From Nemertoderma westbladi (Eukaryota; Animalia; Xenacoelomorpha), in NCBI GenBank assembly GCA_032718475.1, contig JAUCBJ010008603.1, positions 1 through 64,000 of the forward strand: DNA of 64,000 nucleotides, given 5' to 3'. The notes beneath the pieces are model-generated. The model was not told the origin of the DNA. It did not search any database and saw only the letters and a list, made by a program, of their open reading frames with translations. Position 1 is the first letter of the stretch. Each line of letters begins with the position of its first letter. The position numbers and the translations under genes are program-made. This document shows positions 3,849 through 40,884 of the stretch, one piece after another.

Positions 3849-3915
3849 CATTATTCAAACTGCTGAAATGAACTATCGTGCGTTTTGTACATTTTTATTC
3901 AGTTACGTTTTTCGG

Positions 3916-7792: not shown

Positions 7793-7898
7793 GTCAATCT
7801 CCCCCAGGCAGCGACGATGAACATTCCGATGACGAGTTTTACGACGCTTTTCAGGAGTTTGAAAAATCTAGCGGTGGTCGCAGTGGAAGTATTCACAG
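7793..7898 (+). CDS. OSBP: OSBP exon containing the FFAT motif
   Basis: ttctag|; translates SQSPPGSDDEHSDDEFYDAFQEF (FFAT-type EFYDA). Donor CACAG|gtgaga; phases 1/2 consistent. Confidence 0.85.
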
Positions 7899-9510
7899 GT
7901 GAGATAGCCAAACGTACTGTAGAGCACAGGTGTGATAGCCAAACGTACTGTAGAGCACAGGTGTGATAGCCAAACGTACTGTAGAGCACAGGTGAGATAG
8001 CCAAACGTACTGTAGAGCACAGGTGAGATAGCCAAACGTACTGTAGAGCACAGGTGTGATAGCCAAACGTACTGTAGAGCACAGGTGAGATAGCCAAACG
8101 TACTGTAGAGCACAGGTGGATAGCCAAACGTAGAGCACAGGTGTGATAGCCAAACGTAGAGCACAGGTGTGATAGCCAAACGTAGAGCACAGGTGTGATA
8201 GCCAAACGTACTGTAGAGCACAGGTGTGATAGCCAAACGTACTGTAGAGCACAGGTGTGATAGCCAAACGTAGAGCACAGGTGTGATAGCCAAACGTAGA
8301 GCACAGGTGTGATAGCCAAACGTACTGTAGAGCTCAGGTGAGATAGCCAAACGTACTGTAGAGCACAGGTGTGATAGCCAAACGTAGAGCACAGGTGTGA
8401 TAGCCAAACGTACTGTAGAGCACAGGTGAGATAGCCAAACGTACTGTAGAGCACAGGTGAGATAGCCAAACGTACTGTAGAGCACAGGTGAGATAGCCAA
8501 ACGTACTGTAGAGCACAGGTGAGATAGCCAAACGTACTGTAGAGCACAGGTGAGATAGCCAAACGTACTGTAGAGCACAGGTGGATAGCCGACGTAGAGC
8601 ACAGGTGTGATAGCCAAACGTAGAGCACAGGTGTGATAGCCAAACGTACTGTAGAGCACAGGTGAGATAGCCAAACGTACTGTAGAGCACAGGTGAGATA
8701 GCCAAACGTACTGTAGAGCACAGGTGAGATAGCCAAACGTACTGTAGAGCACAGGTGTGATAGCCAAACGTACTGTAGAGCACAGGTGAGATAGCCAAAC
8801 GTACTGTAGAGCACAGGTATGATAGCCAAACGTAGAGCACAGGTGTGATAGCCAAACGTAGAGCACAGGTGTGATAGCCAAACGTACTGTAGAGCACAGG
8901 TGAGATAGCCAAACGTACTGTAGAGCACAGGTGTGATAGCCAAACGTAGAGCACAGGTGAGATAGCCAAACGTACTGTAGAGCACAGGTGAGATAGCCAA
9001 ACGTACTGTAGAGCACAGGTGTGATAGCCAAACGTACTGTAGAGCACAGGTGTGATAGCCAAACGTACTGTAGAGCACAGGTGAGATAGCCAAACGTACT
9101 GTAGAGCACAGGTGTGATAGCCAAACGTACTGTAGAGCACAGGTGTGATAGCCAAACGTACTGTAGAGCACAGGTGTGATAGCCAAACGTACTGTAGAGC
9201 ACAGGTGTGATAGCCAAACGTACTGTAGAGCACAGGTGTGATAGCCAAACGTAGAGCACAGGTGTGATAGCCAAACGTAGAGCACAGGTGTGATAGCCAA
9301 ACGTAGAGCACAGGTGTGATAGCCAAACGTAGAGCACAGGTGAGATAGCCAAACGTAGAGCACAGGTGTGATAGCCAAACGTACTGTAGAGCACAGGTGT
9401 GATAGCCAAACGTACTGTAGAGCACAGCTGTGTGATAGCCAAACGTACTGTAGAGCACAGGTGTGATAGCCAAACGTACTGTAGAGCACAGGTGTGATAG
9501 CCGAGCACAG
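7894..9510 (+). repeat. 31/26-bp minisatellite starting at an OSBP splice donor, ~55 copies
   Basis: Unit CACAGGTG(A/T)GATAGCCAAACG(TACTG)TAGAG; the first CACAG is the exon end. Confidence 0.97.
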
Positions 9511-10313
9511 GCTGTGCTATATCTAAGAGTTTAAACACAGTAACATGTATTCCTTCCTTGAGGAGCGAGCCATGAAGTTAGTGGGATTTCGCATATACAC
9601 ACACATTAGCTATTACTATCACATTATCTACTACTTCTACCGTAATCAGCCTGGTGCATTGAAACTGCACATTGAGATTCTATGCGGGCTTATGGACAAA
9701 ATTGCGCCGCCACAACTCCCTAAACTATCCCCCATGACTTTCGCGAGATTATCCGCATCTTCAAGGCCAGTGTCCTTTTAGATGCGTCTCAAGAAAGTCA
9801 TGGGCTGTCCACCATGCTTATTCACTCCATGAGGCTGCCAAAGCACAACATTTTGCACTGGCTGGTCCTCACGGCGAAAGCAATGTCCTGCAAAGCGGAG
9901 GCGATTTTGTTATAGTGTCAAGCTTGGGGGAACCAATGAGACACCTCCAATGTTATATAGTGTCTGGTTGGAGATGTGTGCATTGTACTTGACACAATGA
10001 ACCCGGAGTAGCATTCTTGTGAGTATAAATGACGGCTCAATGATTGTTTACGTCACTCTCTTGGCAACGGTTCGTGAGAATAGAAGATATTGAAAATTAC
10101 AGAGACTTTCACACAGATAAGCCTCGCAACTCACTATCACAATTTCAGCACAGTTTCAGTATTTTCTCACAGATAATGCCTAGTTGGTCCGACTAAAAAG
10201 TTATTATTTTATAACTGTGTTAGTTAGTTAACCTTGTGTTACACTAGTTACAGACTGGATGTGACCTAGTATCCTTTACAGACGTAGCTATGGTAACCTT
10301 TGATTCTTTACAG

Positions 10314-10452
10314 ACGTAATCCCAGTGCAGCCAGTTTCGATGGGTCCACTGGTTCCGGAATATCTCGAGAATTAACCGAAGACAACCTCAGTAGCAACAG
10401 CGACGAGGATGTCACCGCATTGGAGAATGGCGACGCATCTAAACACAGTGGA
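10314..10452 (+). CDS. OSBP: OSBP exon (linker)
   Basis: tttacag|A CGT AAT.. RNPSAASFDG..KHSG|gtaagt; phases 2/0 fit the neighbours. Confidence 0.7.
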
Positions 10453-11116
10453 GTAAGTCGGATCTCATTACGGTTTACTGTTTACGGTTAAAGTGCGTGA
10501 AATTTATTGAAGCTTTTGAAATTACCTTTTTCATGTAAAGCAAAAATTGAAAGAAACGGTTAAGAAATGGCGGAGGAGTATTTTTCGTGCAAAAAATTTC
10601 ATTCTGAGATAATCGCCTTCAAAGTTCGAACCTTCCCGCGCAAAACTACCAAGTATGGGGGTCTGGTTGGTTAATAGTGTCTGACAGGAAGGAAGCACAC
10701 CGCCGAGCTAAAATTATATTTATGGGGGTTTTCGGGGTCGCTGATCTCATTTCCGATGTCAGTTTTAATATTTGGTGGAATTTAGTATGTCGGTTGTCTG
10801 TCTGTCTGTCTGTCTTACATTTTGAAAGACAGATTGGCAGACAGATATTCCACGATAACTCGAGAACTAAAAGAGATCTCTCTAAGCCGTTTTCAGATTT
10901 GAAATCCCCTTTTAATTCCGCTCTAGTTGCAATAAAATCCAAATTTATGAAATTTTTTGAGAGGCAGGGGCTCCCCCCCCCCCCCCCCCCCCCCTTCATT
11001 ATTATTGGGGGATAGGCAAAAAGACACAAAAAAGAATAATTTTAATGTTCAATATTCTGGATGTTGTTATTAATATCAAATATGTTTGCTTAGTTACCAA
11101 TCTGTGTTTATATTAG

Positions 11117-11311
11117 TTACCGAATGACGTGCGGAAGAGCGGCGGGTTGGGAAGGAGTCAGACACCCCCAGAGACGGTAACAAAACGCCCTATAACGCCG
11201 TTAAAGAGACAACGGAGGACTACAATACGGGAGAAACCGGAGATGGGATTGAACCTGTGGTCGACAATGAAGAACTGCATAGGGAAGGAGTTGTCCAAGA
11301 TACCAATGCCG
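11117..11311 (+). CDS. OSBP: OSBP exon, start of the ORD domain
   Basis: tattag|LPNDV..RRTTIREKP..LNLWSTMKNCIGKELSKIPMP|gttagt. Confidence 0.9.
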
Positions 11312-11559
11312 GTTAGTGACTGAAGAGCTTTTATTTTATGCTTACGGTATGCCCAGTTTTCCAGGTCCGGTGCTATTTAAGTACGTATGTTGGTATTAGA
11401 GGCGTTTGAATTCAGTTTCGTTCAACCTAATTAGTAACTGCAGAGGTCAGATTCAATTTGAGAGCCAGCAAACCCACGACAAGCGAGCAAATAAACTAGG
11501 AGTGTGAGAGACTCAGAACTGACAATGCAGTGAAGGATGCTTAAACATTTGAAGTACTC

Positions 11560-12480
11560 CAGTCAATGGACGAAGACCAGTCCGCCCATTCTATTTTCCA
11601 GAATATAATAATAGCCCTCAAGGAATCAGTCAAGAAGCTTTTGTTATGGAATACCTGAAGTAATTGTTGCTGGCATTGGATTGTTATATTGTGACACAGA
11701 AGCTCAGGTACTCTCACCAGATGGTGAAACTGAGTTTTTCTCAATCCTGGATGACATTGTTCTTCTTTCTAAAACGCTAGCAGGAGCACAGCTTCTACTG
11801 AATAAAATTCAGAGGGCTGGGAAACTTGACCACATTTAATAATAATCAATTGAGGAAAGTTGATTACTTGAGATATAGAGCAGCATAAAATAAAAGACAT
11901 AGAAGTTAAGAAAGCAAAGGCTTGGGTAGCTCTATCAAAAATGGATACCATCTGGAAATCAGATCTCTCCAGGCACCTGAAGACTAAGTTCTTTCGAGCC
12001 ACAGTGGAAAGTGTATTTTTATACGGGGGTGAGACCTGGACACTGACTAAATCACTTGAACAACGAATTGATGGTTGCTACACAAGACTACTAAGGGCAG
12101 CCCAAAACATCAGCTGGAGACAACACATGACAATCGCCGAGCTTTATGGTACAATACCACATGTATCAACCACCCTCCGTGAACGCAGATTAAGATTCAG
12201 TGGGCACTGCTGGCGAAGTAAAGACGATGTCAAACCAGATCTACTTCTCTGGCAACCAACTCATGGAAAGCGTAGTCGTGGACGACCGGCCATAACATAT
12301 ATAGATCAACTTGAAAGGGATACTGAACTTGGGAGAAACGAAATTGCGACAACTATGGAGAATCGGGAAGCCTGGAAGGATCTCATTTGCAATGTATGTC
12401 CGAGCTCGCTCGATCTAGTAGTTTATCTGCAATTTATATCATTCTGCCTCACTAATGCGCAGGAAGTAAGAAAGTCTAAG
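11560..12480 (+). mobile_element. 5'-truncated, degenerate RTE-like non-LTR retrotransposon fragment in an OSBP intron
   Basis: VLSPDGETE remnant near 11708. ORF 11941-12483 has IWKS..KFFRATVESVFLYGGETWTLTK..RRLRFSGHCWR..RGRPAITYID, typical of the RTE RT C-terminal region. Boundaries approximate. Confidence 0.8.
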
Positions 12481-12564
12481 TAGTTTTTGTTCTCACTAAA
12501 TGTCTCTGTGGAACAACAGACTTCCCACAGCCCCCACTAGATGGCGTTGTATTTAACTCCTCAG

Positions 12565-12813
12565 GTAAACTTCAGCGAACCGCTATCAATGCTACAACGA
12601 CTCACGGAGGAGATGGAATACTCCCGGATACTGGACCAAGCGGCGGCTACATCCGACCAATGGGAGCAGCTGGCTCTGGTCGCTGGATTCACTGCATCCG
12701 CCTACTCCACGACCGCCTCCCAGCGGACCACCAAGCCGTTCAACCCGTTGCTAGGGGAGACCTACGACTGCGATCGTGTAGACGACCTGGGGTGGCGATC
12801 CTTGGCGGAACAG
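12565..12813 (+). CDS. OSBP: OSBP exon (ORD)
   Basis: ctcag|VNFSEPLSMLQRLTEEMEYS..KPFNPLLGETY..AEQ|gttagc. Confidence 0.95.
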
Positions 12814-12957
12814 GTTAGCTCTATGTGTTGCTAGACCCGCCACACACTAGATCAACGGGGATATTGATCTCACATCTCTAATTTACTTTGGGCCTTTAGT
12901 GGTGCTACAATTGTAGACTTTCCTACACTGTATGAGTTAGTAATTCCTTATTTTTAG

Positions 12958-13074
12958 GTTTCACATCACCCTCCCGCCTGCGCTATACATGTTGAGGGTC
13001 GAGGCTGGACTAGTTGGCAAGAATTTACTATGACTTCCAAGTTTAGAGGGAAATATCTTCAGGTTATACCTCAG
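12958..13074 (+). CDS. OSBP: OSBP exon with the EQVSHHPP signature
   Basis: ttttag|VSHHPPACAIHVEGRGWTSWQEFTMTSKFRGKYLQVIPQ|gttagt. Confidence 0.95.
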
Positions 13075-14513
13075 GTTAGTTGGCAAGGAAACACGTAAAT
13101 AATATTAAATATTAAAGTTCGCATTAAATTTCGTAAATGGAACTAGTCCACGCCAACAAGTTTATATATACAACAACACTCATTTTGTTTAATAATCAAA
13201 TAAAATTGATATTTAATTATATTCATGTACCATATTGAGTAAAATGAAGAATGATTGTTAAGAAGTTAAAAATATATGTCCAGGGTTAAAAATAACCAAC
13301 TATTAGCTCGTTATATTAGGGTCGGGCTATAGTTAATATTGGGTAACCAAGAGATTTAGTATATTATGCGTTCAGAACATTTACCAGAACAATTTTAATG
13401 GGCAGAAGCTAAAAAATACGTAAGTGAACGTTTTAGTATCGGACCGCTATGTATTCCATAATGCGTTTTACTTTTAATTCTAACGAGATCGATCGTAATG
13501 GAAAGCAAGAGCTAATGAATTGATCTTCAACACCAGGATTTCCCATTTCGATATGAGCTGTAAGATTTGAGTCATTGGGTTCATTCGTATAAATGAGTAA
13601 CGATTCGATTCCTGGCAAGGATAATGACTTCCATGCGCCGACGTAACTACTGGTAAGACCTCTGTAGTTGTCCATTGGGTTACTGTGGTTCTTTATCAGG
13701 TTCACAGACTGAAACACAGAAAAGAACGGAAGACAATACTAACGGAACACACTTTAATGGATAGAGGTTTATAGTGAGTCACAGTGAGCACAGTGCGGCT
13801 CTCCGTTTAGAAATGCTGAGTATAGCCTGCTGAATAGTGAGAGTTGAGACATTTGGATTAGTGCATTCATAGTCACTACATGCTGTTTCAATTTTATCGT
13901 ATATATTTCTAGCTCTGGCATTTTTGGAGTAGTGTGTCACTGTGTCCTCCAGTTGGATTGTGTGGGTAATAGTATTGGATCTACCAGTGTTAGCTTCTCT
14001 ACATTGTTCCAGAAGTACCCCGGGGAACCAGTGGAACCAATCTATAGTCGTAGTAAACCGGTATGAATATGTAGACCTCGTCCTGCGACCATCTATCTGT
14101 ATCTCCAACTGCATTCAACTGAAAAAAAATCAATCAATACTCGTTATTGGCTCAAGGAACAACTTAACAACCTAACAACCCCCTAAATCTGTTGAAACCC
14201 CCCTAAAAGTCTTTCATATAAAAATAGCATATAGGCAAACATTAGATCAGATCTACACTCGAGTATAGAAAAATATTTTAAGTACAGAAATGAACGAAAT
14301 TAAACGCGCCTTATCGGAAAGGATTGAATCGCTGCACAGGTTGGCCAATATCATCCACTACTGCTGTGGTTGTATTCGGGTACAGAAACATTCCCTGTGA
14401 TCGCGATGGTTCCTGTATTCCGCAATATAATTTAGTCCAAATGTCACCTACACAAATTATTATCGTCGTTATTGCCTCAGTTTTGTTATTTTCCCTTCTC
14501 CATATTTGTTTAG

Positions 14514-14752
14514 GGAACTGCGCATCTCCGGTTCGAGAAGTCCGGCAACCACTACACGTGGAGAAAAGTCACGACAACCATCCACAATATTATAGTTGGT
14601 CGGTTGTGGATAGACCAGTCGGGAGAAATGGACATAATTAATCATAAAACAGGCGATAAATGCCACTTAAAGTATTCGGCGTACAGTTACTTTACTAGGG
14701 AAACCCCTCGTAAGGTAACGGGTATGGTCATGGATAAAGATGGAGACGCCAG
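14514..14752 (+). CDS. OSBP: OSBP exon (ORD)
   Basis: tttag|GTAHLRFEKSGNHYTWRKVTTTIHNIIVGRLWIDQSGEM..YSYF..RKVTG..AG|gtattt. Confidence 0.92.
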
Positions 14753-14879
14753 GTATTTATTATATTTTATAATACATAAGACGATTAAATTATTACTCAA
14801 AGTTATATGTAGTTTTGTAGAAACCCATCTCTCAATCCCGCAATATGAATAAGCCTTATAAACTATTTTTGCTACCTAG

Positions 14880-15017
14880 GTATATTATTTCGGGTACATG
14901 GGATGATCACATAGAAGGTGCTAAAGTTGTCTACGGTAAACGCAAAGCGAATTCCGATGAGAAGCCAAAGTTACACACGACGCAACCACGGGTGCTGTGG
15001 CAACGAGTATACCCGCC
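14880..15017 (+). CDS. OSBP: OSBP exon (ORD)
   Basis: cctag|G, then YIISGTWDDHIE..VLWQRVYP, CC|gtaagt. Confidence 0.9.
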
Positions 15018-15089
15018 GTAAGTAGTTGCCATTTATTCGACTAAAAGATAACCAGTGAAAAATAAAGTTAAGTTTTATTTGACCGTTAG

Positions 15090-15318
15090 GGATTACGCAC
15101 AAACTTATTTCCAGCGCGGTCCGCCCAGAACTTTACTCCCCAGAGGAAACTCCAGTACTCATTTAGCTACCATTTAAGGATGCAAGGCAGAGATGCGCCC
15201 TGGCTGGTCCCTTTAAAGCATTCGTGCCGAAACGAAAACTGCCCTGGCCCATGTGAGGATCGAACCCACGACCTACGGGAGATGTGAATTCAATGCAACC
15301 ACTACACCAAGGTGGCTA
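15090..15318 (-). mobile_element. tRNA-derived SINE-like sequence
   Basis: Minus strand has A-box TGGTGTAGTGG (15309-15299) and B-box GGTTCGATCC (15266-15257), followed by non-tRNA body; no clean cloverleaf. 3' boundary uncertain. Confidence 0.45.
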
Positions 15319-15392
15319 TTTGTGTTCCCTCCATTCTCCTCAGTTTCCGGGACTAACCAGTTGATGAATACCTGACCTGTTATTGTTTACAG

Positions 15393-15610
15393 GTCGACCT
15401 ACGAGAAAATGTACCACTTTACCGAGTTCGCGTGCTCTCTCAATGAGCCGGAGCCGGATTGCGCTCCGACCGACTCGAGATTGCGACCCGATCAACGGAT
15501 GTTGGAGGACGGAAACTGGCAGAAATCCAACGAACAGAAGATGAGGTTGGAAGAGAAGCAGCGATTGGCTAGACGGCTTAGGGAAGCCGAGATAGCGGGA
15601 GCTGATGGAG
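15393..15610 (+). CDS. OSBP: OSBP exon (ORD)
   Basis: ttacag|G, then STYEKMYHFTEFACSLNE..APTDSRLRPDQR..RLEEKQR..ADG G|gtgagt. Confidence 0.95.
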
Positions 15611-18600
15611 GTGAGTCAGTGAGGAGGCCGAGATAGCGGGAGCTGTTCGGGGTGAGTTAGTGAGGCCGAGATAGCGGGAGCTGATGGAGGTGAGTCAGTG
15701 AGGAGGCCGAGATAGCGGGAGCTGATGGAGGTGAGTTAGTGAGGCGGCCGAGATAGCGGGAGCTGATCGAGGTGAGTTAGTGAGGAGGCCGAGATAGCGG
15801 TGAGCTGTTCGGGGTGAGTCAGTGAGGAGGCCGAGATAGCGGGAGGTGATCGGGGTGAGTCAGTGAGGAGGCCGAGATAGCGGGAGCTGTTCGGGGTATG
15901 TTAGTGAGGCCGAGATAGCGCGAGCTGTTCGGGGTGAGTTAGTGAGGCCGAGATAGCGGGAGCTGTTCGGGGTGAGTTAGTGAGGAGGCCGAGATAGCGG
16001 GAGCTGATGGAGGTGAGTCAGTGAGGAGGCCGAGATAGCGGGAGCTGATGGAGGTGAGTTAGTGAGGAGGCCGAGATAGCGGGAGCTGATGGAGGTGAGT
16101 CAGTGAGGAGGCCGAGATAGCGGGAGCTGTTCGGGGTGAGTTAGTGAGGCCGAGATAGCGGGAGGTGATCGAGGTGAGTTAGTGAGGAGGCCGAGATAGC
16201 GAGAGCTGATGGAGGTGAGTTAGTGAGGAGGCCGAGATAGCGGGAGCTGATGGAGGTGAGTCAGTGAGGAGGCCGAGATAGCGGGAGCTGTTCGGGGTGA
16301 GTTAGTGAGGCCGAGATAGCGGGAGGTGTTCGGGGTGAATTAGTGAGGAGGCCGAGATAGCGGGAGCTGTTCGGGGTGAGTTAGCAAGGAGGCCGAGATA
16401 GCGGGAGGTGATCGAGGTGAATTAGTGAGGAGGCCGAGATAGCGGGAGCTGTTCGGGGTGAGTTAGTGAGGCCGAGATAGCGGGAGCTGATCGGGGTGAG
16501 TTAGTGAGGAGGCCGAGATAGCGGGAGCTGATGGAGGTGAGTTAGTGAGGAGGCCGAGATAGCGGGAGCTGTTCGGGGTGAGTTAGTGAGGCCGAGATAG
16601 CGGGAGCTGTTCGGGGTGAGTTAGTGAGGCCGAGATAGCGGGAGCTGATCGAGGTGAGTTAGTGAGGAGGCCGAGATAGCGGGAGCTGTTCGGGGTCAGT
16701 TAGTGAGGCCGAAATAGCGGGAGCTGATGGAGGTGAGTTAGTGAGGAGGCCGAGATAGCGGAAGGTGTTCGGGGTGAGTTAGTGAGGAGGCCGAGATAGC
16801 GGGAGCTGTTCGGGGTGAGTTAGTGAGGCCGAGATAGCGGGAGCTGATCGGGGTGAGTTAGTGAGGAGGCCGAGATAGCGGGAGCTGATGGAGGTGAGTT
16901 AGTGAGGAGGCCGAGATAGCGGAAGGTGTTCGGGGTGAGTTAGTGAGGAGGCCGAGATAGCGGGAGCTGATGGAGGTGAGTTAGTGAGGAGGCCGAGATA
17001 GCGGAAGGTGTTCGGGGTGAGTTAGTGAGGAGGCCGAGATAGCGGGAGCTGTTCGGGGTGAGTTAGTGAGGCCGAGATAGCGGGAGCTGATCGGGGTGAG
17101 TTAGTGAGGAGGCCGAGATAGCGGGAGCTGATGGAGGTGAGTTAGTGAGGAGGCCGAGATAGCGGGAGCTGATGGAGGTGAGTTAGTGAGGAGGCCGAGA
17201 TAGCGGGAGCTGTTCGGGGTGAGTTAGTGAGGAGGCCGAGATAGCGGGAGCTGTTCGGGGTGAGTTAGTGAGGAGGCCGAGATAGCGGGAGCTGATGGAG
17301 GTGAGTTAGTGAGGAGGCCGAGATAGCGGGAGCTGTTCGGGGTGAGTTAGTGAGGCCGAGAGAGCGGGAGCTGTTCGGGGTGAGTTAGTGAGGCCGAGAT
17401 AGCGGGAGCTGATCGAGGTGAGTTAGTGAGGCCGAGATAGCGGGAGCTGTTCGGGGTGAGTTAGTGAGGAGGCTGAGATAGCGGGAGCTGATGGAGGTGA
17501 GTTAGTGAGGAGGCCGAGATAGCGGGAGCTGTTCGGGGTGAGTTAGTGAGGAGGCTGAGATAGCGGGAGCTGTTCGGGGTGAGTTAGTGAGGAGGCCGAG
17601 ATAGCGGGAGCTGATGGAGGTGAGTTAGTGAGGAGGCCGAGATAGCGGGAGCTGATGGAGGTGAGTTAGTGAGGAAGCCGAGATAGCCGGAGCTGATGGA
17701 GGTGAGTTAGTGAGGAGGCCGAGATAGCGGGAGGTGAGTCAGTGAGGAGGCCGAGATAGCGGGAGCTGTTCGGGGTGAGTTAGTGAGGCCGAGATAGCGG
17801 GAGCTGATGGAGGTGAGTCAGTGAGGAGGCCGAGATAGCGGGAGCTGTTCGGGGTGAGTTAGTGAGGAGGCCGAGATAGCGGGAGCTGTACGGGGTGAGT
17901 TAGTGAGGAGGCCGAGATAGCGGGAGCTGATGGAGGTGAGTTAGTGAGGAGGCCGAGATAGCGGGAGCTGATGGAGGTGAGTTAGTGAGGAAGCCGAGAT
18001 AGCGGGAGCTGTTCGGGGTGAGTTAGTGAGGAGGCTGAGATAGCGGGAGCTGTTCGGGGTGAGTCAGTGAGGAGGCCGAGATAGCGGGAGGTGATCGGGG
18101 TGAGTCAGTGAGGAGGCCGGGATAGCGGGAGCTGATGGAGGTGAGTTAGTGAGGAAGCCGAGATAGCGGGAGGTGAGTCAGTGAGGAGGCCGAGATAGCG
18201 GGAGCTGTTCGGGGTGAGTTAGTGAGGTGGCCGGGATAGCGGGAGGTGAGTCAGTGAGGAGGCCGAGATAGCGGGAGCTGTTCGGGGTGAGTTAGTGAGG
18301 CCGAGATAGCGGGAGGTGATCGAGGTGAGTTAGTGAGGAGGCCGAGATAGCGGGAGCTGTTCGGGGTGAGTTAGTGAGGAGGCCGAGATAGCGGGAGGTG
18401 TTCGGGGTGAGTTAGTGAGGAGGCCGAGATAGCGGGAGCTGATGGAGGTGAGTTAGTGAGGAGGCCGAGATAGCGGGAGCTGTTCGGGGTGAGTTAGTGA
18501 GGCCGAGATAGCGGGAGCTGTTCGGGGTGCGTTAGTGAGGAGGCCGAGATAGCGGGAGCTGATGGAGGTGAGTTAGTGAGGAGGCCGAGATAGCGGGAGC

Positions 18601-21503: not shown

Positions 21504-21543
21504 TCGAGACTTTCACAGACATTTGAACCAATTTTATATGCAG

Positions 21544-27900: not shown

Positions 27901-27935
27901 TAGTCCACACCCACCCAATCTCCAATCACACTCAC

Positions 27936-28188: not shown

Positions 28189-28209
28189 CTATTGGAGAAA
28201 ATGTTTCAG

Positions 28210-31200
28210 ATTTTTCAAACTTACTTGTGTATAGTTACCAAACTTACTTGTGTTCCGTAATCAAATTTGTGTACCGTTGACAAACTTACATGTGTAACCG
28301 GTACCAAACTTAATTGTGTACAGTAAACCAAATTTGTGTATCATTTGCAAACTTACTTGTGTACTGTATCTAAACTTGTGAACCGTTACCAAACTTACTT
28401 GTGTATAGTTACCAAACTTACTTGTGTATAGTTACCAAACTTACTTGTGTATAGTTACCAAACTTACTTATGTATAGTTACCAAACATTTACTTGTGTAC
28501 CGTAACCAAACTTACTTGTGTACCGTAACCAAACTTACTTGTGTACCGTTACCAAACTTACTTGTGTACCGTTACCAAACTTACTGTGTACCGTAACCAA
28601 ACTTACTTGTGTACCGTTGCGTTACCAAACTTACTTGTGCACCGTAACCAAACTTACTTGTGTACCGTAACCAAACTTACTTGTGTACCGTAACCAAACT
28701 TACTTGTGTACCGTAACCAAACTTACTTGTGAACCGTTACAAAACTTACTTGTGTATACCGTTACCAAACTTACTTGTGAACCGTTACCAAACTTACTTG
28801 TGTACCGTTACCAAACTTACTTGTGTACCGTTACCAAACTTACTTGTGAACCGTTACCAAACTTACTTGTGTATAGTTACCAAACTTACTTGTGTATAGT
28901 TACCAAATTTACTTGTGTATAGTTACCAAACTGACTTGTGTATAGTTACCAAACTTACTTGTGTATAGTTACCAAACTTACTTATGTATAGTTCCCAAAC
29001 TTTTACTTGTGTACCGTAACCAAACTTACTTGTGTATAGTTGCCAAACTTGTTTGTGTTCCGTAATCAAATTTGTGTACCGTTACCAAACTTACTTGTGT
29101 ACCGTAACCAAACTTACTTGTGTACCGTAACCAAACTTACTTGTGTACCGTTACCAAACTTACTTGTGTACCGTTACCAAACTTACTTGTGTACCGTTGC
29201 GTTACCAAACTTACTTGTGCACCGTTACCAAACTTACTTGTGTACCGTAACCAAACTTACTTGTGAACCGTTACCAAACTTACTTGTGCACCGTAACCAA
29301 ACTTACTTGTGTACCATTACCAAACTTACTTGTGTACCGTTACCAAACTTACTTGTGTACCGTTACCAAACTTACTTGTGTACCGTTACCAAACTTACTT
29401 GTGTACCGTTGCGTTACCAAACGTACTCGTGTACCATAACCAAACTTACTTGTGTACCGTAACCAAACTTACTTGTGCACCGTAACCAAACTTACTTGTG
29501 TACTGTAACCAAACTTACTTGTGTACCGTAACCAAACTTACTTGTGTACCGTAACCAAACTTACTTGTGTACCGTAACCAAACTTACTTGTGCACCGTAA
29601 CCAAACTTACTTGTGAACCGTTACCAAACTTACTTGTATACCGTAACCAAACTTACTTGTGTACCATTACCAAACGTACTCGTGTACCATAACCAAACTT
29701 ACTTGTGTACCGTAACCAAACTTACTTGTGTACCGTAACCAAACTTACTTGTGTACTGTAACCAAACTTACTTGTGTACCGTAACCAAACTTACTTGTGC
29801 ACCGTAACCAAACTTACTTGTGAACCGTTACCAAACTTACTTGTGTACCGTAACCAAACTTACTTGTGCACCGTAACCAAACTTACTTGTGAACCGTTAC
29901 CAAACTTACTTGTGCACCGTAACCAAACTTACTTGTGTACCATTACCAAACTTACTTGTGTACCGTAACCAAACTTACTTGTGTACTGTAACCAAACTTA
30001 CTTGTGTACCGTAACCAAACTTACTTGTGCACCGTAACCAAACTTACTTGTGAACCGTAACCAAACTTACTTGTGCACCGTAACCAAACTTACTTGTGAA
30101 CCGTTACCAAACTTACTTGTGTACCGTAACCAAACTTACTTGTATACCGTAACCAAACTTACTTGTGTACCATTACCAAACGTACTCGTGTACCATAACC
30201 AAACTTACTTGTGTACCGTAACCAAACTTACTTGTGTACCGTAACCAAACTTACTTGTGTACTGTAACCAAACTTACTTGTGTACCGTAACCAAACTTAC
30301 TTGTGCACCGTAACCAAACTTACTTGTGAACCGTTACCAAACTTACTTGTGTACCGTAACCAAACTTACTTGTGCACCGTAACCAAACTTACTTGTGAAC
30401 CGTTACCAAACTTACTTGTGTACCGTAACCAAACTTACTTGTGCACCGTAACCAAACTTACTTGTGAACCGTTACCAAACTTACTTGTGTACCGTAACCA
30501 AACTTAATTGTATACCGTAACCAAACTTACTTGTGTACCATTACCAAACGTACTCGTGTACCATAACCAAACTTACTTGTGTACCGTAACCAAACTTACT
30601 TGTGTACCGTAACCAAACTTACTTGTGTACTGTAACCAAACTTACTTGTGTACCGTAACCAAACTTACTTGTGCACCGTAACCAAACTTACTTGTGAACC
30701 GTTACCAAACTTACTTGTGTACCGTAACCAAACTTACTTGTGCACCGTAACCAAACTTACTTGTGAACCGTTACCAAACTTACTTGTGCACCGTAACCAA
30801 ACTTACTTGTGTACCATTACCAAACTTACTTGTGCACCGTTACCAAACTTACTTGTGTACCGTTACCAAACTTACTTGTGTACCGTTACCAAACTTACTT
30901 GTGTACCGTTGCGTTACGAAACTTACTTGTGCACTGTAACCAAACTTACTTGTGCACCGTAACCAAACTTACTTGTGAACCGTTACCAAACTTACTTGTG
31001 CACCGTAACCAAACTTACTTGTGCACTGTAACCAAACTTACTTGTGCACCGTAACCAAACTTACTTGTGAACCGTTACCAAACTTACTTGTGCACCGTAA
31101 CCAAACTTACTTGTGTACCATTACCAAACTTACTTGTGCACCGTTACCAAACTTACTTGTGTACCGTTACCAAACTTACTTGTGCACCGTTACCAAACTT

Positions 31201-34200
31201 ACTTGTGCACCGTTACCAAACTTACTTGCGTACCGTTACCAAACTTACTTGTGTACCAAAACCAAACTTACTTGTGTACCGTTGCGTTACCAAACGTACT
31301 TGTGTACCGTAACCAAACTTACTTGTGCACCGTAACCAAACTTACTTGTGAACCGTTACCAAACTTACTTGTATACCGTAACCAAACTTACTTGTGTACC
31401 ATTACCAAACGTACTCGTGTACCATAACCAAACTTACTTGTGTACCGTAACCAAACTTACTTGTGTACCATTACCAAACGTACTCGTGTACCATAACCAA
31501 ACTTACTTGTGTACCGTAACCAAACTTACTTGTGTACCGTAACCAAACTTACTTGTGTACTGTAACCAAACTTACTTGTGTACCGTAACCAAACTTACTT
31601 GTGCACCGTAACCAAACTTACTTGTGAACCGTTACCAAACTTACTTGTGAACCGTTACCAAACTTACTTGTGCACCGTAACCAAACTTACTTGTGTACCA
31701 TTACCAAACTTACTTGTGTACCGTTACCAAACTTACTTGTGTACCGTTACCAAACTTACTTGTGTACCGTTACCAAACTTACTTGTGTACCGTTGCGTTA
31801 CCAAACGTACTCGTGTACCATAACCAAACTTACTTGTGTACCGTAACCAAACTTACTTGTGCACCGTAACCAAACTTACTTGTGTACTGTAACCAAACTT
31901 ACTTGTGTACCGTAACCAAACTTACTTGTGTACCGTAACCAAACTTACTTGTGTACCGTAACCAAACTTACTTGTGCACCGTAACCAAACTTACTTGTGA
32001 ACCGTTACCAAACTTACTTGTATACCGTAACCAAACTTACTTGTGTACCATTACCAAACGTACTCGTGTACCATAACCAAACTTACTTGTGTACCGTAAC
32101 CAAACTTACTTGTGTACCGTAACCAAACTTACTTGTGTACTGTAACCAAACTTACTTGTGTACCGTAACCAAACTTACTTGTGCACCGTAACCAAACTTA
32201 CTTGTGAACCGTTACCAAACTTACTTGTGTACCGTAACCAAACTTACTTGTGCACCGTAACCAAACTTACTTGTGAACCGTTACCAAACTTACTTGTGCA
32301 CCGTAACCAAACTTACTTGTGTACCATTACCAAACTTACTTGTGTACCGTAACCAAACTTACTTGTGTACTGTAACCAAACTTACTTGTGTACCGTAACC
32401 AAACTTACTTGTGCACCGTAACCAAACTTACTTGTGAACCGTAACCAAACTTACTTGTGCACCGTAACCAAACTTACTTGTGAACCGTTACCAAACTTAC
32501 TTGTGTACCGTAACCAAACTTACTTGTATACCGTAACCAAACTTACTTGTGTACCATTACCAAACGTACTCGTGTACCATAACCAAACTTACTTGTGTAC
32601 CGTAACCAAACTTACTTGTGTACCGTAACCAAACTTACTTGTGTACTGTAACCAAACTTACTTGTGTACCGTAACCAAACTTACTTGTGCACCGTAACCA
32701 AACTTACTTGTGAACCGTTACCAAACTTACTTGTGTACCGTAACCAAACTTACTTGTGCACCGTAACCAAACTTACTTGTGAACCGTTACCAAACTTACT
32801 TGTGTACCGTAACCAAACTTACTTGTGCACCGTAACCAAACTTACTTGTGAACCGTTACCAAACTTACTTGTGTACCGTAACCAAACTTAATTGTATACC
32901 GTAACCAAACTTACTTGTGTACCATTACCAAACGTACTCGTGTACCATAACCAAACTTACTTGTGTACCGTAACCAAACTTACTTGTGTACCGTAACCAA
33001 ACTTACTTGTGTACTGTAACCAAACTTACTTGTGTACCGTAACCAAACTTACTTGTGCACCGTAACCAAACTTACTTGTGAACCGTTACCAAACTTACTT
33101 GTGTACCGTAACCAAACTTACTTGTGCACCGTAACCAAACTTACTTGTGCACCGTAACCAAACTTACTTGTGTACCATTACCAAACTTACTTGTGCACCG
33201 TTACCAAACTTACTTGTGTACCGTTACCAAACTTACTTGTGTACCGTTACCAAACTTACTTGTGTACCGTTGCGTTACGAAACTTACTTGTGCACTGTAA
33301 CCAAACTTACTTGTGCACCGTAACCAAACTTACTTGTGAACCGTTACCAAACTTACTTGTGCACCGTAACCAAACTTACTTGTGCACTGTAACCAAACTT
33401 ACTTGTGCACCGTAACCAAACTTACTTGTGAACCGTTACCAAACTTACTTGTGCACCGTAACCAAACTTACTTGTGTACCATTACCAAACTTACTTGTGC
33501 ACCGTTACCAAACTTACTTGTGTACCGTTACCAAACTTACTTGTGCACCGTTACCAAACTTACTTGTGCACCGTTACCAAACTTACTTGCGTACCGTTAC
33601 CAAACTTACTTGTGTACCAAAACCAAACTTACTTGTGTACCGTTGCGTTACCAAACGTACTTGTGTACCGTAACCAAACTTACTTGTGCACCGTAACCAA
33701 ACTTACTTGTGAACCGTTACCAAACTTACTTGTATACCGTAACCAAACTTACTTGTGTACCATTACCAAACGTACTCGTGTACCATAACCAAACTTACTT
33801 GTGTACCGTAACCAAACTTACTTGTGTACCGTAACCAAACTTACTTGTGTACTGTAACCAAACTTACTTGTGTACCGTAACCAAACTTACTTGTGTACCA
33901 TTACCAAACGTACTCGTGTACCATAACCAAACTTACTTGTGTACCGTAACCAAACTTACTTGTGTACCGTAACCAAACTTACTTGTGTACTGTAACCAAA
34001 CTTACTTGTGTACCGTAACCAAACTTACTTGTGCACCGTAACCAAACTTACTTGTGAACCGTTACCAAACTTACTTGTGAACCGTTACCAAACTTACTTG
34101 TGCACCGTAACCAAACTTACTTGTGTACCATTACCAAACTTACTTGTGTACCGTTACCAAACTTACTTGTGTACCGTTACCAAACTTACTTGTGTACCGT

Positions 34201-37200
34201 TACCAAACTTACTTGTGTACCGTTGCGTTACCAAACGTACTCGTGTACCATAACCAAACTTACTTGTGTACCGTAACCAAACTTACTTGTGCACCGTAAC
34301 CAAACTTACTTGTGTACTGTAACCAAACTTACTTGTGTACCGTAACCAAACTTACTTGTGTACCGTAACCAAACTTACTTGTGTACCGTAACCAAACTTA
34401 CTTGTGCACCGTAACCAAACTTACTTGTGAACCGTTACCAAACTTACTTGTATACCGTAACCAAACTTACTTGTGTACCATTACCAAACGTACTCGTGTA
34501 CCATAACCAAACTTACTTGTGTACCGTAACCAAACTTACTTGTGTACCGTAACCAAACTTACTTGTGTACTGTAACCAAACTTACTTGTGTACCGTAACC
34601 AAACTTACTTGTGCACCGTAACCAAACTTACTTGTGAACCGTTACCAAACTTACTTGTGTACCGTAACCAAACTTACTTGTGCACCGTAACCAAACTTAC
34701 TTGTGAACCGTTACCAAACTTACTTGTGCACCGTAACCAAACTTACTTGTGTACCATTACCAAACTTACTTGTGTACCGTAACCAAACTTACTTGTGTAC
34801 TGTAACCAAACTTACTTGTGTACCGTAACCAAACTTACTTGTGCACCGTAACCAAACTTACTTGTGAACCGTAACCAAACTTACTTGTGCACCGTAACCA
34901 AACTTACTTGTGAACCGTTACCAAACTTACTTGTGTACCGTAACCAAACTTACTTGTATACCGTAACCAAACTTACTTGTGTACCATTACCAAACGTACT
35001 CGTGTACCATAACCAAACTTACTTGTGTACCGTAACCAAACTTACTTGTGTACCGTAACCAAACTTACTTGTGTACTGTAACCAAACTTACTTGTGTACC
35101 GTAACCAAACTTACTTGTGCACCGTAACCAAACTTACTTGTGAACCGTTACCAAACTTACTTGTGTACCGTAACCAAACTTACTTGTGCACCGTAACCAA
35201 ACTTACTTGTGAACCGTTACCAAACTTACTTGTGTACCGTAACCAAACTTACTTGTGCACCGTAACCAAACTTACTTGTGAACCGTTACCAAACTTACTT
35301 GTGTACCGTAACCAAACTTAATTGTATACCGTAACCAAACTTACTTGTGTACCATTACCAAACGTACTCGTGTACCATAACCAAACTTACTTGTGTACCG
35401 TAACCAAACTTACTTGTGTACCGTAACCAAACTTACTTGTGTACTGTAACCAAACTTACTTGTGTACCGTAACCAAACTTACTTGTGCACCGTAACCAAA
35501 CTTACTTGTGAACCGTTACCAAACTTACTTGTGTACCGTAACCAAACTTACTTGTGCACCGAAACCAAACTTACTTGTGCACCGTAACCAAACTTACTTG
35601 TGTACCATTACCAAACTTACTTGTGCACCGTTACCAAACTTACTTGTGTACCGTTACCAAACTTACTTGTGTACCGTTACCAAACTTACTTGTGTACCGT
35701 TGCGTTACGAAACTTACTTGTGCACTGTAACCAAACTTACTTGTGCACCGTAACCAAACTTACTTGTGAACCGTTACCAAACTTACTTGTGCACCGTAAC
35801 CAAACTTACTTGTGCACTGTAACCAAACTTACTTGTGCACCGTAACCAAACTTACTTGTGAACCGTTACCAAACTTACTTGTGCACCGTAACCAAACTTA
35901 CTTGTGTACCATTACCAAACTTACTTGTGCACCGTTACCAAACTTACTTGTGTACCGTTACCAAACTTACTTGTGCACCGTTACCAAACTTACTTGTGCA
36001 CCGTTACCAAACTTACTTGCGTACCGTTACCAAACTTACTTGTGTACCAAAACCAAACTTACTTGTGTACCGTTGCGTTACCAAACGTACTTGTGTACCG
36101 TAACCAAACTTACTTGTGCACCGTAACCAAACTTACTTGTGAACCGTTACCAAACTTACTTGTATACCGTAACCAAACTTACTTGTGTACCATTACCAAA
36201 CGTACTCGTGTACCATAACCAAACTTACTTGTGTACCGTAACCAAACTTACTTGTGTACCGTAACCAAACTTACTTGTGTACTGTAACCAAACTTACTTG
36301 TGTACCGTAACCAAACTTACTTGTGCACCGTAACCAAACTTACTTGTGAACCGTTACCAAACTTACTTGTGTACCGTAACCAAACTTACTTGTGCACCGT
36401 AACCAAACTTACTTGTGAACCGTTACCAAACTTACTTGTGCACCGTAACCAAACTTACTTGTGTACCATTACCAAACTTACTTGTGCACCGTTACCAAAC
36501 TTACTTGTGTACCGTTACCAAACTTACTTGTGAACCGTTACCAAACTTACTTGTGTACCGTTGCGTTACGAAACTTACTTGTGCACTGTAACCAAACTTA
36601 CTTGTGTACCGTTGCGTTACGAAACTTACTTGAGTACTGTAACCAAACTTACTTGTGTACCGTAACCAAACTTACTTGTGCACCGTAACCAAACTTACTT
36701 GTGCACCGTAACCAAACTTACTTGTGTACCGTTACCAAACTTACTTGTGTACCGTTACCAAACTTACTTGTGTACCGTAACCAAACTTACTTGTGCACCG
36801 TAACCAAACGTACTCGTGTACCATAACCAAACTTACTTGTGTACCGTAACCAAACTTACTTGTGTACCGTAACCAAACTTACTTGTGTACTGTAACCAAA
36901 CTTACTTGTGTACCGTAACCAAACTTACTTGTGCACCGTAACCAAACTTACTTGTGAACCGTTACCAAACTTACTTGTGTACCGTAACCAAACTTACTTG
37001 TGCACCGTAACCAAACTTACTTGTGAACCGTTACCAAACTTACTTGTGCACCGTAACCAAACTTACTTGTGTACCATTACCAAACTAACTTGTGCACCGT
37101 TACCAAACTTACTTGTGTACCGTTACCAAACTTACTTGTGAACCGTTACCAAACTTACTTGTGTACCGTTGCGTTACGAAACTTACTTGTGCACTGTAAC

Positions 37201-39257
37201 CAAACTTACTTGTGTACCGTTGCGTTACGAAACTTACTTGAGTACTGTAACCAAACTTACTTGTGTACCGTAACCAAACTTACTTGTGCACCGTAACCAA
37301 ACTTACTTGTGCACTGTAACCAAACTTACTTGTGCACCGTAACCAAACTTACTTGTGAACCGTTACCAAACTTACTTGTGCACCGTAACCAAACTTACTT
37401 GTGTACCATTACCAAACTTACTTGTGCACCGTTACCAAACTTACTTGTGTACCGTTACCAAACTTACTTGTGCACCGTTACCAAACTTACTTGTGCACCG
37501 TTACCAAACTTACTTGCGTACCGTTACCAAACTTACTTGTGTACCAAAACCAAACTTACTTGTGTACCGTTGCGTTACCAAACGTACTTGTGTACCGTAA
37601 CCAAACTTACTTGTGCACCGTAACCAAACTTACTTGTGAACCGTTACCAAACTTACTTGTATACCGTAACCAAACTTACTTGTGTACCATTACCAAACGT
37701 ACTCGTGTACCATAACCAAACTTACTTGTGTACCGTAACCAAACTTACTTGTGTACCGTAACCAAACTTACTTGTGTACTGTAACCAAACTTACTTGTGT
37801 ACCGTAACCAAACTTACTTGTGCACCGTAACCAAACTTACTTGTGAACCGTTACCAAACTTACTTGTGTACCGTAACCAAACTTACTTGTGCACCGTAAC
37901 CAAACTTACTTGTGAACCGTTACCAAACTTACTTGTGCACCGTAACCAAACTTACTTGTGTACCATTACCAAACTTACTTGTGCACCGTTACCAAACTTA
38001 CTTGTGTACCGTTACCAAACTTACTTGTGAACCGTTACCAAACTTACTTGTGTACCGTTGCGTTACGAAACTTACTTGTGCACTGTAACCAAACTTACTT
38101 GTGTACCGTTGCGTTACGAAACTTACTTGAGTACTGTAACCAAACTTACTTGTGTACCGTAACCAAACTTACTTGTGCACCGTAACCAAACTTACTTGTG
38201 CACCGTAACCAAACTTACTTGTGTACCATTACCAAACTTACTTGTGCACCGTTACCAAACTTACTTGTGTACCGTTACCAAACTTACTTGTGTACCGTTA
38301 CCAAACTTACTTGTGTACCGTAACCAAACTTACTTGTGCACCGTAACCAAACTTACTTGTGAACCGTTACCAAACTTACTTGTGCACCGTAACCAAACTT
38401 ACTTGTGCACTGTAACCAAACTTACTTGTGCACCGTAACCAAACTTACTTGTGAACCGTTACCAAACTTACTTGTGCACCGTAACCAAACTTACTTGTGT
38501 ACCATTACCAAACTTACTTGTGCACCGTTACCAAACTTACTTGTGTACCGTTACCAAACTTACTTGTGCACCGTTACCAAACTTACTTGTGCACCGTTAC
38601 CAAACTTACTTGCGTACCGTTACCAAACTTACTTGTGTACCAAAACCAAACTTACTTGTGTACCGTTGCGTTACCAAACGTACTTGTGTACCATAACCAA
38701 ACTTACTTGTGTACCGTTGCGTTACCAAACTTACTTGTGCACCGTTACCAAACTTACTTGTGTACCGTTACCAAACTTACTTGTGTACCAAAACCAAACT
38801 TACTTGTGTACCGTTGCGTTACCAAACGTACTTGTGTACCATAACCAAACTTACTTGTGTACCGTTGCGTTACCAAACTTACTTGTGCACCGTTACCAAA
38901 CTTACTTGCGTACCGTTACCAAACTTACTTGTGTACCAAAACCAAACTTACTTGTGTACCGTTGCGTTACCAAACGTACTTGTGTACCATAACCAAACTT
39001 ACTTGTGTACCGTTGCGTTACCAAACGTACTTGTGTACCATAACCAAACTTACTTGTGTACCGTTGCGTTACCAAACTTACTTGTGCACCGTTACCAAAC
39101 TTACTTGTGTACCGTTACCAAACTTACTTGTGTACCATAACCAAACTTACTTGTGTACCGTTGCGTTACCAAACTTACTTGTGCACCGTTACCAAACTTA
39201 CTTGTGCACCGTAACCAAACTTACTTGTGCACTGTAACCAAACTTACTTGTGTACCG
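28210..39257 (-). repeat. ~11-kb 23-bp minisatellite (~480 copies) filling ACE intron 4; unit copies the exon end plus donor
   Basis: Plus unit ACCGT(A/T)ACCAAACTTACTTGTG(T/C/A) equals minus ACGGTACACAA|GTAAGTTTGGT(T/A); exon 4 ends ..ACGGTACACAA|gtaagt. Confidence 0.98.
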
Positions 39258-39468
39258 TGTAGCCTTGCTTTACTAGTTCGTCTGTAACATCTATTTCCGC
39301 GGCATCGGGATATGGTTTAACGATGTCCATTATCCCCCACTGTTGGGCCCACAAGTTGCCGAGTAGATGTGCCGGTATGAGGCCGTCATCCCCAATATTG
39401 GTGCAGCCGGAATCGTCACCAAAGTTGTTGTCCTCTTTGAGTTTACGTCGAACATACGCATGGAGTTG
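39248..39468 (-). CDS. ACE: ACE-like exon 4
   Basis: gtttag|QLHAYVRRKL..GLIPAHLLGNLWAQQW..KPYPD..DVTDELVKQGYTVH AA|gtaagt. Confidence 0.95.
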
Positions 39469-39496
39469 CTAAACGGTATGAAAAAGAAGAGATTTC

Positions 39497-40884
39497 GCTA
39501 CAATGGTTTCACTTGTTCCCATAAACATACCTGGTACAATGGTTTCACTTGTTCCCATAAACATACCTGGTACAATGGTTTCACTTGTTCCCATAAACAT
39601 ACCTGGTACAATGGTTTCACTTGTTCCCATAAACATACCTGGTACAATGGTTTCACTTGTTCCCATAAACATACCTGGTACAATGGTTTCACTTGTACCC
39701 ATAAACATACCTGGTATAATGGTTTCACTTGTTCCCATAAACATACCTGGTACAATGGTTTCACTTGTTCCCATAAACATACCTGGTACAATGGTTTCAC
39801 TTGTTCCCAAACATACCTGGTACAATGGTTTCGCTTGTTCCCATAAACATACCTGGTACAATGGTTTCACTTGTTCCCATAAACATACCTGGTACAATGG
39901 TTTCACTTGTACCCATAAACATACCTGGTACAATGGTTTCACTTGTTCCCATAAACATACCTGGTACAATGGTTTTACTTGTTCCCATAAACATACCTGG
40001 TACAATGGTTTCACTTGTACCCATAAACATACCTGGTACAATGGTTTCACTTGTTCCCAAACATACCTGGTACAATGGTTTCGCTTGTTCCCATAAACAT
40101 ACCTGGTACAATGGTTTCACTTGTTCCCATAAACATACCTGGTACAATGGTTTCACTTGTACCCATAAACATACCTGGTACAATGGTTTCACTTGTTCCC
40201 ATAAACATACCTGGTACAATGGTTTCACTTGTTCCCATAAACATACCTGGTACAATGGTTTCACTTGTACCCATAAACATACCTGGTACAATGGTTTTTC
40301 ACTTGTTCCCATAAACATACCTGGTACAATGGTTTCACTTGTTCCCATAAACATACCTGGTACAATGGTTTCACTTGTTCCCATAAACATACCTGGTACA
40401 ATGGTTTCACTTGTTACCATAAACATACCTGGTACAATGGTTTCACTTGTTCCCAAACATACCTGGTACATTGGTTTCACTTGTTCCCATAAACATACCT
40501 GGTACAATGGTTTCACTTGTTACCAAACATACCTGGTACAATGGTTTCACTTGTTCCCATAAACATACCTGGTACAATGGTTTCACTTGTTCCCATAAAC
40601 ATACCTGGTACAATGGTTTCACTTGTTCCCAAACATACCTGGTACAATGGTTTCGCTTGTTCCCATAAACATACCTGGTACAATGGTTTCACTTGTACCC
40701 ATAAACATACCTGGTACAATGGTTTCACTTGTACCCATAAACATACCTGGTACAATGGTTTCACTTGTACCCATAAACATACCTACCTGGTACAATGGTT
40801 TCACTTGTACCCATAAACATACCTGGTACAATGGTTTCACTTGTTCCCATAAACATACCTGGTACAATGGTTTTACTTGTTTCC
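39497..40884 (-). repeat. 36-bp minisatellite (~38 copies) filling ACE intron 3; unit copies the exon end plus donor
   Basis: Minus unit GGGAACAAGTGAAACCATTGTACCAG|GTATGTTTAT versus exon 3 end GGAAACAAGTAAAACCATTGTACCAG|gtatgt. Confidence 0.97.

What the first reader, a model, noticed from the sequence alone, without database searches (positions are those of the whole stretch)
7894..40884. Recurrent splice-donor-anchored minisatellites: introns expand by amplifying their own exon/intron junction
Seen: 4 of the 15 introns modelled here, in two unrelated genes on opposite strands, begin with a tandem array whose first unit overlaps the exon end and whose every unit retains the donor. These are OSBP 7898| (CACAG|GTGAG), OSBP 15610| (GGAG|GTGAGT), ACE 40859| (CCAG|GTATGT) and ACE 39248| (ACAA|GTAAGT). 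The units are unrelated in sequence (31, ~40, 36, 23 bp), so this is not one mobile repeat. Two more arrays (4437-6155, 63403-64000) also carry consensus donors. Inference: a splice-site-coupled mutational process or selective filter builds kb-scale arrays of tens to hundreds of decoy 5' splice sites, and the spliceosome must still choose the first. I know of no established name for this as a genome-wide system.
Basis: partly seen in the sequence, partly recalled or inferred. Interest (0 to 1): 0.85.

Follow-up and report, generated by a model that had tools for sequence, protein, structure and literature searches.

The report
Repeated splice donors inflate four introns
In two neighbouring genes of an unidentified animal, the end of an exon plus its splice signal has been copied head-to-tail about 40 to 475 times into four introns, but the assembled RNA uses the first signal each time, so these are likely tolerated repeats of a kind already named "mirage" minisatellites in lancelets and known from several human genes.

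Summary
Four of 15 modelled introns (OSBP 7898| and 15610|, ACE 40859| and 39248|) open with unrelated tandem arrays copied from their own exon/donor junction, together 62% of modelled intron length. RNA-type contigs of run X4 join all four exons at the first donor. A second individual's DNA contig runs into both ACE arrays, so those junctions are not assembly artefacts; array lengths are unverified. Four of 5 intronic arrays sit on donors (P about 1e-5, uncorrected for window choice). 'Every unit retains the donor' is only roughly true. The two extra arrays could not be tied to an exon. The claim that no name exists is wrong: these are 'mirage' minisatellites (PMC3087553) with human counterparts (F7, PMC1557585; ABCA7 reaches 10.7 kb, PMC5954066). 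This scan has noted the same kind before on other DNA (14 findings, at least 11 genomes). Likely mechanism: local duplication, minisatellite turnover, and tolerance because the first donor wins. Why donors are favoured is open: a short-intron filter fits three of four introns; a donor-biased mutation is not excluded and was not testable without a genome.

The parts
7894..9502 (+). 31-bp array (26-bp deletion variant in 14 of 54 units) starting 5 nt inside OSBP exon 2; donor 7898|; CACAGG occurs at the donor and again at the array's far end
15582..19453 (+). 38/41-bp array holding about 29 nt of the penultimate OSBP exon plus donor 15610|
   Evidence: X4 contig joins 15610 to the exon at 21544
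19455..21504 (+). 28/32-bp C-rich array in the same intron, ending 40 nt before the acceptor; not a junction copy (the 1 of 5 intronic arrays that is not on a donor)
39499..40887 (-). 36-bp array holding 29 nt of ACE exon 3 plus donor 40859|; leaves 30 nt of unique intron before the acceptor
   Evidence: X4 contig carries the exon's letters, not the unit's
28216..39258 (-). 23-bp array, about 475 units, 11 kb, holding 11-13 nt of ACE exon 4 plus donor 39248|; leaves about 28 nt of unique intron; distal tenth most decayed
   Evidence: X4 and X5 contigs join 39248 to 28188
25825..25874 (-). single dispersed 52-nt copy of the ACE intron-5 donor junction (27922-27973), 85% identical, GT lost
10262..10318 (+). 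decayed two-copy duplication (period 32) across the OSBP intron-2 acceptor; RNA uses the downstream, true AG
7149..21686 (+). OSBP-family gene, 10 exons in window (7149-7317, 7793-7898, 10314-10452, 11117-11311, 12565-12813, 12958-13074, 14514-14752, 14880-15017, 15393-15610, 21544-21686); 5' PH-domain exons not found in window
25044..42741 (-). single-domain ACE-family (peptidase M2) gene, 6 exons (42741-42322, 41691-41556, 41010-40859, 39468-39248, 28188-27936, 25706-25044), 614 aa
4437..6142 (+). 57-bp array with a strong donor 9-mer in each unit; no adjoining exon found
63404..64000 (-). 54-bp array with strong donor 9-mers on the - strand, runs off the window; host exon unknown

Best explanation
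These are four independent junction-spanning ('mirage') minisatellites whose host exons are spliced at the first donor in the assembled RNA; each likely began as a 23-41 bp local duplication across its own 5' splice site, likely grew by slippage or unequal exchange, and likely persists as near-neutral DNA because the most upstream donor wins. Shown: local origin of each unit, first-donor use in the main transcript, unique acceptor regions left intact. Inferred: seeding at short direct repeats (CACAGG flanks the OSBP-2 unit; exon TTAGGGAAGCC resembles unit TTAGTGAGGCC in OSBP 9); first-donor choice by 5'-to-3' scanning or exon definition as on human F7; nonsense-mediated decay as a backstop for OSBP 2 and ACE 4, where read-through meets a stop at intron base 2. 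The donor bias is most likely a filter: duplications inside exons or over the branch point/acceptor are purged, so in a short intron nearly every tolerated duplication straddles the donor.
For: Units match their own exon tails and nothing else in the window. X4 contigs (depth about 1000-3000) join all four exons at the first donor; X5, from another study, agrees for ACE 4. In ACE 3 the second and third donors would give stop-free, in-frame insertions, yet the single X4 record laid there carries exon letters only, so decay cannot explain that choice. X2, with many SNPs against the window, has one contig running from the 23-mer through the exon into the 36-mer with no difference. The three shortest collapsed introns (50, 66, 109 nt) are all array introns (P = 0.009 post hoc); with the last 30 nt barred, 4 of 5 on donors is expected for 60-nt introns (P = 0.95) and plausible at 80 nt (0.25). 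Array consensus has drifted from the exon copy (2 of 29 nt in ACE 3) and the distal end of ACE 4 is most decayed, as in ordinary turnover. Same anatomy and silent decoys in PMC3087553, PMC3902484, PMC1557585.
Against: The short-intron filter fails for longer introns (P = 0.07 at 100 nt, 0.0075 at 150 nt); none of the 11 array-free introns is under 127 nt, and OSBP 2 collapses to 842 nt. Short residues could be a result of array turnover rather than its cause. A fifth donor-junction copy in ACE intron 5 makes 5 of 15 donors duplicated against 1 of 15 acceptors, which suits a mutational bias as well. Contigs drop rare variants, so minor use of downstream donors is not excluded; ABCA7 shows such use. 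Acceptor-side arrays exist in amphioxus, so the filter is not absolute.
Confidence: 0.7

Rival explanations
1. A mutational process tied to 5' splice sites (R-loops, polymerase pausing, or repair templated at the exon/intron step) seeds or expands duplications preferentially at donors across this genome.
For: 4 of 5 intronic arrays on donors, P about 1e-5 under a uniform null; a further dispersed donor copy in ACE intron 5; all four arrays are G-skewed on the sense strand (+0.21 to +0.61 against +0.03 in array-free introns); two orphan arrays carry strong donors.
Against: One window, chosen for the pattern; G skew follows partly from the donor motif itself; orphan-array donor scores are marginal (p = 0.089, 0.037) and the other 6 of 8 non-junction arrays show nothing (p 0.12-0.93); a short-intron filter reproduces the count.
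Confidence: 0.18
2. The decoy donors are kept by selection, for example as U1-binding sites that protect enlarged introns from premature polyadenylation, or as back-up donors or length-tuned splicing regulators.
For: GT kept in 626 of 636 in-register copies; no substitution in the donor 9-mer of the ACE-3 array against 6 alleles in the other 27 positions; no AATAAA in any of the four arrays.
Against: 32 of 55 sites in the OSBP-2 array carry a weakened donor; donor positions vary about as much as the rest in OSBP 2 (2/9 vs 3/22) and ACE 4 (11/9 vs 23/14); copies are not independent; absence of AATAAA from four short units is expected by chance; no isoform using a decoy was seen.
Confidence: 0.06
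3. The introns were created by tandem duplication of exonic AG|GT sequence (Rogers model), or are removed stepwise by recursive splicing at each unit.
For: 31-mer and 36-mer units end in AG directly before GT; ACE introns 3 and 4 are almost wholly array.
Against: The intronic part of each unit does not match the start of the downstream exon, and each intron ends in a unique pyrimidine-rich acceptor; best acceptor scores of the four units (3.5, 1.6, 0.7, -4.5) are below all 15 real acceptors (lowest 4.8).
Confidence: 0.03
4. The arrays are assembly or amplification artefacts.
Against: Unit contigs at depth far above the unique flanks in two DNA runs of two studies, and an X2 contig bridging exon into both ACE arrays; units carry many distinct variants (9, 44, 12, 38 distinct units) with a decay gradient.
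Confidence: 0.03

Closest known systems
'Mirage' minisatellites of amphioxus (Adh3, globins BflGb6/BflGb9, troponin C, PGBD5). Seen: passages of PMC3087553 and PMC3902484; the original Adh3 paper (Canestro et al. 2002) was not held
   Same: [quoted passage not shown]
   Different: Here all four multi-copy junction arrays are donor-side, copy numbers are higher than the globin cases (38-475 against 2-6), and the animal has no close match in three protein searches. Somatic instability not tested here.
Human F7 intron-7 37-bp VNTR, with CBS, 6-16, LMNB2 and PDGF cases cited there. Seen: abstract, introduction, discussion and passages of PMC1557585
   Same: First unit spans the exon/intron boundary, identical pseudo-donors follow, only the most upstream is normally used.
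   Different: F7 has 5-9 copies in one intron; here 4 of 15 neighbouring introns with up to 423 identical donors. Scanning was tested by mutation in F7 and is only inferred here.
Human ABCA7 intron-18 25-bp VNTR. Seen: passages of PMC5954066
   Same: Starts at the donor; largest allele 10,678 bp, about 427 units, close to the 11-kb ACE array; inflates the intron.
   Different: ABCA7 shows minor use of the second donor and length-dependent exon skipping; neither was seen here, at contig-level sensitivity only.

Membership tests
mirage / junction-spanning minisatellite | Head-to-tail array whose first unit spans a real exon-intron boundary | tested here: met
   boundaries confirmed by RNA-type contigs
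mirage / junction-spanning minisatellite | Unit derived from the host junction and specific to the locus | tested here: met
   units match own exon tail and not each other or elsewhere in the window; rest of genome not available
mirage / junction-spanning minisatellite | Many, not all, units keep the splice signal | tested here: met
   GT kept in 626 of 636 in-register copies; identical 9-mer in 517 of 636
mirage / junction-spanning minisatellite | Regular splicing through the authentic site | tested here: met
   main X4 contigs use the first donor at 4 of 4; X5 at 1 of 1 covered; rare isoforms not visible in contigs
mirage / junction-spanning minisatellite | Length polymorphism or somatic instability | tested here: inconclusive
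   summed contig depth X1 vs X2: about 1042 vs 50 (41-mer), 1733 vs about 290 (36-mer), 12000 vs 7800 (23-mer), unique flanks about 17 vs 22-27; depth is not a copy number and library bias could do this
mirage / junction-spanning minisatellite | Concerted evolution with boundary units left out | tested here: met
   ACE-3 consensus differs from the exon at 2 of 29 nt; ACE-4 distal tenth averages 4.2 differences against 1.0-1.5 in the first eight tenths; no clear gradient in OSBP 2 or ACE 3
Intron gain by tandem duplication (Rogers model) | Both splice sites come from a duplicated exonic AG|GT segment, so the intron start matches the downstream exon | tested here: not met
   intron starts do not match downstream exon starts; unique acceptors
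Recursive (ratchet) splice sites | AG|GT preceded by a polypyrimidine tract of acceptor strength | tested here: not met
   unit acceptor scores below all 15 real acceptors; nascent-RNA test not available
Mobile or dispersed satellite family | Related units at several loci | tested here: not met
   four unrelated consensus units, no cross-match in self-comparison; window only
Genome-wide donor-coupled amplification system | Enrichment of arrays at donors across the genome beyond a length-aware null | not testable with these tools
   no genome held; no other notes on this genome

The most novel reading that the evidence does not exclude
In this lineage a mutational process coupled to 5' splice sites seeds and amplifies junction duplications genome-wide, making donor-anchored minisatellites a main engine of intron and genome growth (here 62% of modelled intron length) and giving hundreds of natural tests of first-donor selection against up to about 420 identical decoys.
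Probability: 0.18. Interest if true: 0.7.

Novelty: new member of a known kind. Interest (0 to 1): 0.3.

Why it matters
As it stands it is a dense, RNA-checked example of a described repeat type: it extends mirage minisatellites to another animal lineage and shows that first-donor choice holds against hundreds of identical decoys over 11 kb. It would matter more if a genome-wide test showed a real donor bias in where duplications arise, because the origin of mirages is stated to be unclear (PMC3087553) and my nine literature searches turned up no genome-wide enrichment test; that library lacks most subscription papers, so this is not proof that none exists.

Tried and rejected
Whole-genome test: no genome held. 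Naming the animal: three protein searches gave no close relative (best listed identities 38%, 63%, 78%); left as a divergent animal. Run search listed no holder on record as RNA, but X4 and X5 contigs skip GT..AG introns and were treated as RNA. No X4 contig covered 15661 or the intron-only part of the ACE arrays; as contigs drop rare variants this is not evidence of absence. Exon for the 4437 array or OSBP's PH domain: tblastn with 8 OSBP homologues found nothing upstream of 7140. Acceptor reading of the 45887-48430 array: score 6.1, p = 0.17, untested. Idea that the ACE-3 array keeps an ancestral residue (E against the exon's K): the site is variable in homologues (K 15, E 13 of 104 domains), uninformative. 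Donor-versus-rest variation for OSBP 9 was mis-phased and dropped (3 of 4 arrays used). Markov-shuffle p-values are floor-limited (200 or 50 shuffles). Intron-position conservation against other animals could not be tested. Papers not held: Canestro 2002 and Turri 1995. PMC10078293 passages concern other mechanisms. Extra retrotransposon ORF: no Pfam hit; the atlas did not answer. No supplements were read; those of PMC3087553 hold the mirage alignments.

Full report
Setting. The window is eukaryotic, from an animal with no close match in three protein searches; no whole genome is held. It contains an aminopeptidase N-like gene (566-3860, +), the 3' ten exons of an OSBP-family gene (+), a six-exon ACE-family gene (-) and a Bel/Pao LTR element at 48929-63403.

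Observation. TRF finds the four arrays, and each begins inside the exon that precedes the stated donor, taking 5, about 29, 29 and 11-13 exonic bases. GT is kept in 626 of 636 in-register copies and the exact authentic 9-mer in 517 of 636; the OSBP-2 array is the exception, with only 18 of 54 identical. The four arrays supply 17,839 of 28,870 modelled intron bases. Five arrays lie in modelled introns; four sit on a donor and none on an acceptor. Under uniform placement this has P = 9e-6, or 8e-5 for 4 of 11 non-LTR arrays window-wide, uncorrected for the choice of window.

RNA and DNA. Six runs were listed, none on record as RNA; four were laid. X4 and X5 contigs skip GT..AG introns, so they behave as RNA. 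In X4 one contig enters exon 3 of OSBP preceded by exon-2 letters ending at 7898, and another leaves 15610 directly into the last exon. One X4 contig covers ACE exon 4, continues into exon 5 at 28188, and on the other side carries the exon-3 variant of the duplicated 29 bases followed by upstream exon-3 sequence; X5 confirms the exon 4-5 join. So the main transcript uses the first donor in 4 of 4. Contigs lose rare variants, so minor use of later donors is open. For DNA, X2 differs from the window at many sites and comes from another study, yet one X2 contig runs from the 23-mer across the exon into the 36-mer with no difference, and unit contigs lie far deeper than unique flanks in X1 and X2. 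Depth ratios differ between X1 and X2, a weak hint of length variation only.

How it likely works. Each unit matches only its own junction. Short direct repeats bound two of the units, which fits the recalled model of minisatellite birth by slippage between short repeats (Haber and Louis; from memory, not read here). Unit variants, drift of the array consensus from the exon copy and a decayed distal end in ACE 4 fit ordinary turnover. Read-through into the array meets a stop at intron base 2 (OSBP 2, ACE 4) or 24 (OSBP 9); only donors 2 and 3 of ACE 3 would give stop-free in-frame products, and these were not seen, which points to real first-donor choice rather than decay alone. Human F7 shows by mutation that the most upstream of identical donors is selected (PMC1557585; abstract, introduction and discussion read).

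Why donors. Three of the four array introns collapse to 50, 66 and 109 bases, the three shortest of 15. If introns were about 60-80 bases and the last 30 could not be disturbed, most tolerated duplications would straddle the donor (P = 0.95 and 0.25 for 4 of 5); at 100 and 150 bases this fails (0.07, 0.0075). Against it, no array-free intron here is under 127 bases, OSBP 2 collapses to 842, and short residues may be an effect of turnover. A fifth donor junction, in ACE intron 5, has one dispersed copy, and one acceptor (OSBP 2) has a decayed two-copy duplication. A donor-biased mutational process therefore stays open. Selection on the decoys has no clear support. Intron gain by duplication and recursive splicing failed their tests.

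What is known. Repeats spanning exon-intron boundaries are named 'mirages' in amphioxus, occur on both donor and acceptor sides, do not disturb splicing, and are suggested to be general in that lineage, with unclear origin (passages of PMC3087553 and PMC3902484). Human F7, CBS, 6-16, LMNB2 and PDGF have the same anatomy, and the ABCA7 VNTR reaches 10,678 bp, about 427 donor-bearing units (passages of PMC5954066), so even the size has precedent. The scan's own notes list 14 such findings in at least 11 other genomes and gave me the lead to the word 'mirage'; they are unchecked AI notes and I verified only the papers. Nine literature searches showed no genome-wide enrichment test.

Verdict. Real, RNA-checked, and a new member of a known kind. 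The density in one window is striking and the cause of the donor bias is an open, testable question, but nothing shown here goes beyond mirage minisatellites. Interest 0.3; the novel reading has probability about 0.18.

Noticed in passing
window 25825-25874 (-) vs 27922-27973: A 52-nt second copy of the ACE intron-5 donor junction lies about 2 kb into the intron, with its GT lost; could be a two-unit array split by a later insertion or a long target-site duplication.
   Followed up: partly
window 10262-10318 (+): Decayed two-copy duplication (period 32) across the OSBP intron-2 acceptor; the X4 contig uses the downstream AG.
   Followed up: partly
window 45887-48430 (-): 31-bp x82 array whose - strand unit is a pyrimidine run ending in CAG; after the last unit comes a short frame to a stop and an AATAAA, as if an acceptor-side array before a terminal exon. 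Score not significant (p = 0.17), no RNA laid.
   Followed up: partly
window 566-3860 (+) and 7149 onward: OSBP's PH-domain exons are not in the window while its RNA contig extends about 280 nt beyond exon 7149, so the aminopeptidase gene probably lies nested on the same strand inside an OSBP intron.
   Followed up: partly
window 48929-63403 (+): Bel/Pao LTR retrotransposon, LTRs 98% identical over 540 nt, no target-site duplication, 3' LTR abutting the 54-bp array; it has its own 32-bp and 39-bp internal arrays.
   Followed up: partly
window 59600-62152 (+): Extra 850-aa ORF inside the retrotransposon after pol, with Cys/His knuckle-like motifs and an acidic stretch that looks by eye like a 3'-5' exonuclease (impression from recall); no Pfam hit even at E 1.
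   Followed up: partly
window 19455-21504 (+): C-rich 28/32-bp array fused directly to the end of the G-rich donor array in OSBP intron 9, ending 40 nt before the acceptor; the intron is two opposite-skew arrays back to back.
   Followed up: partly
window 23092-23395: 21-bp array containing a TTAGGG telomere-like hexamer and a donor-like CAG|GTGATT on the - strand, between the two genes' 3' ends.
   Followed up: no
window 41804-41972 and 25906-25947: Palindromic (inverted-repeat) elements of 169 and 42 nt inside ACE introns 1 and 5, possibly MITE-like.
   Followed up: no
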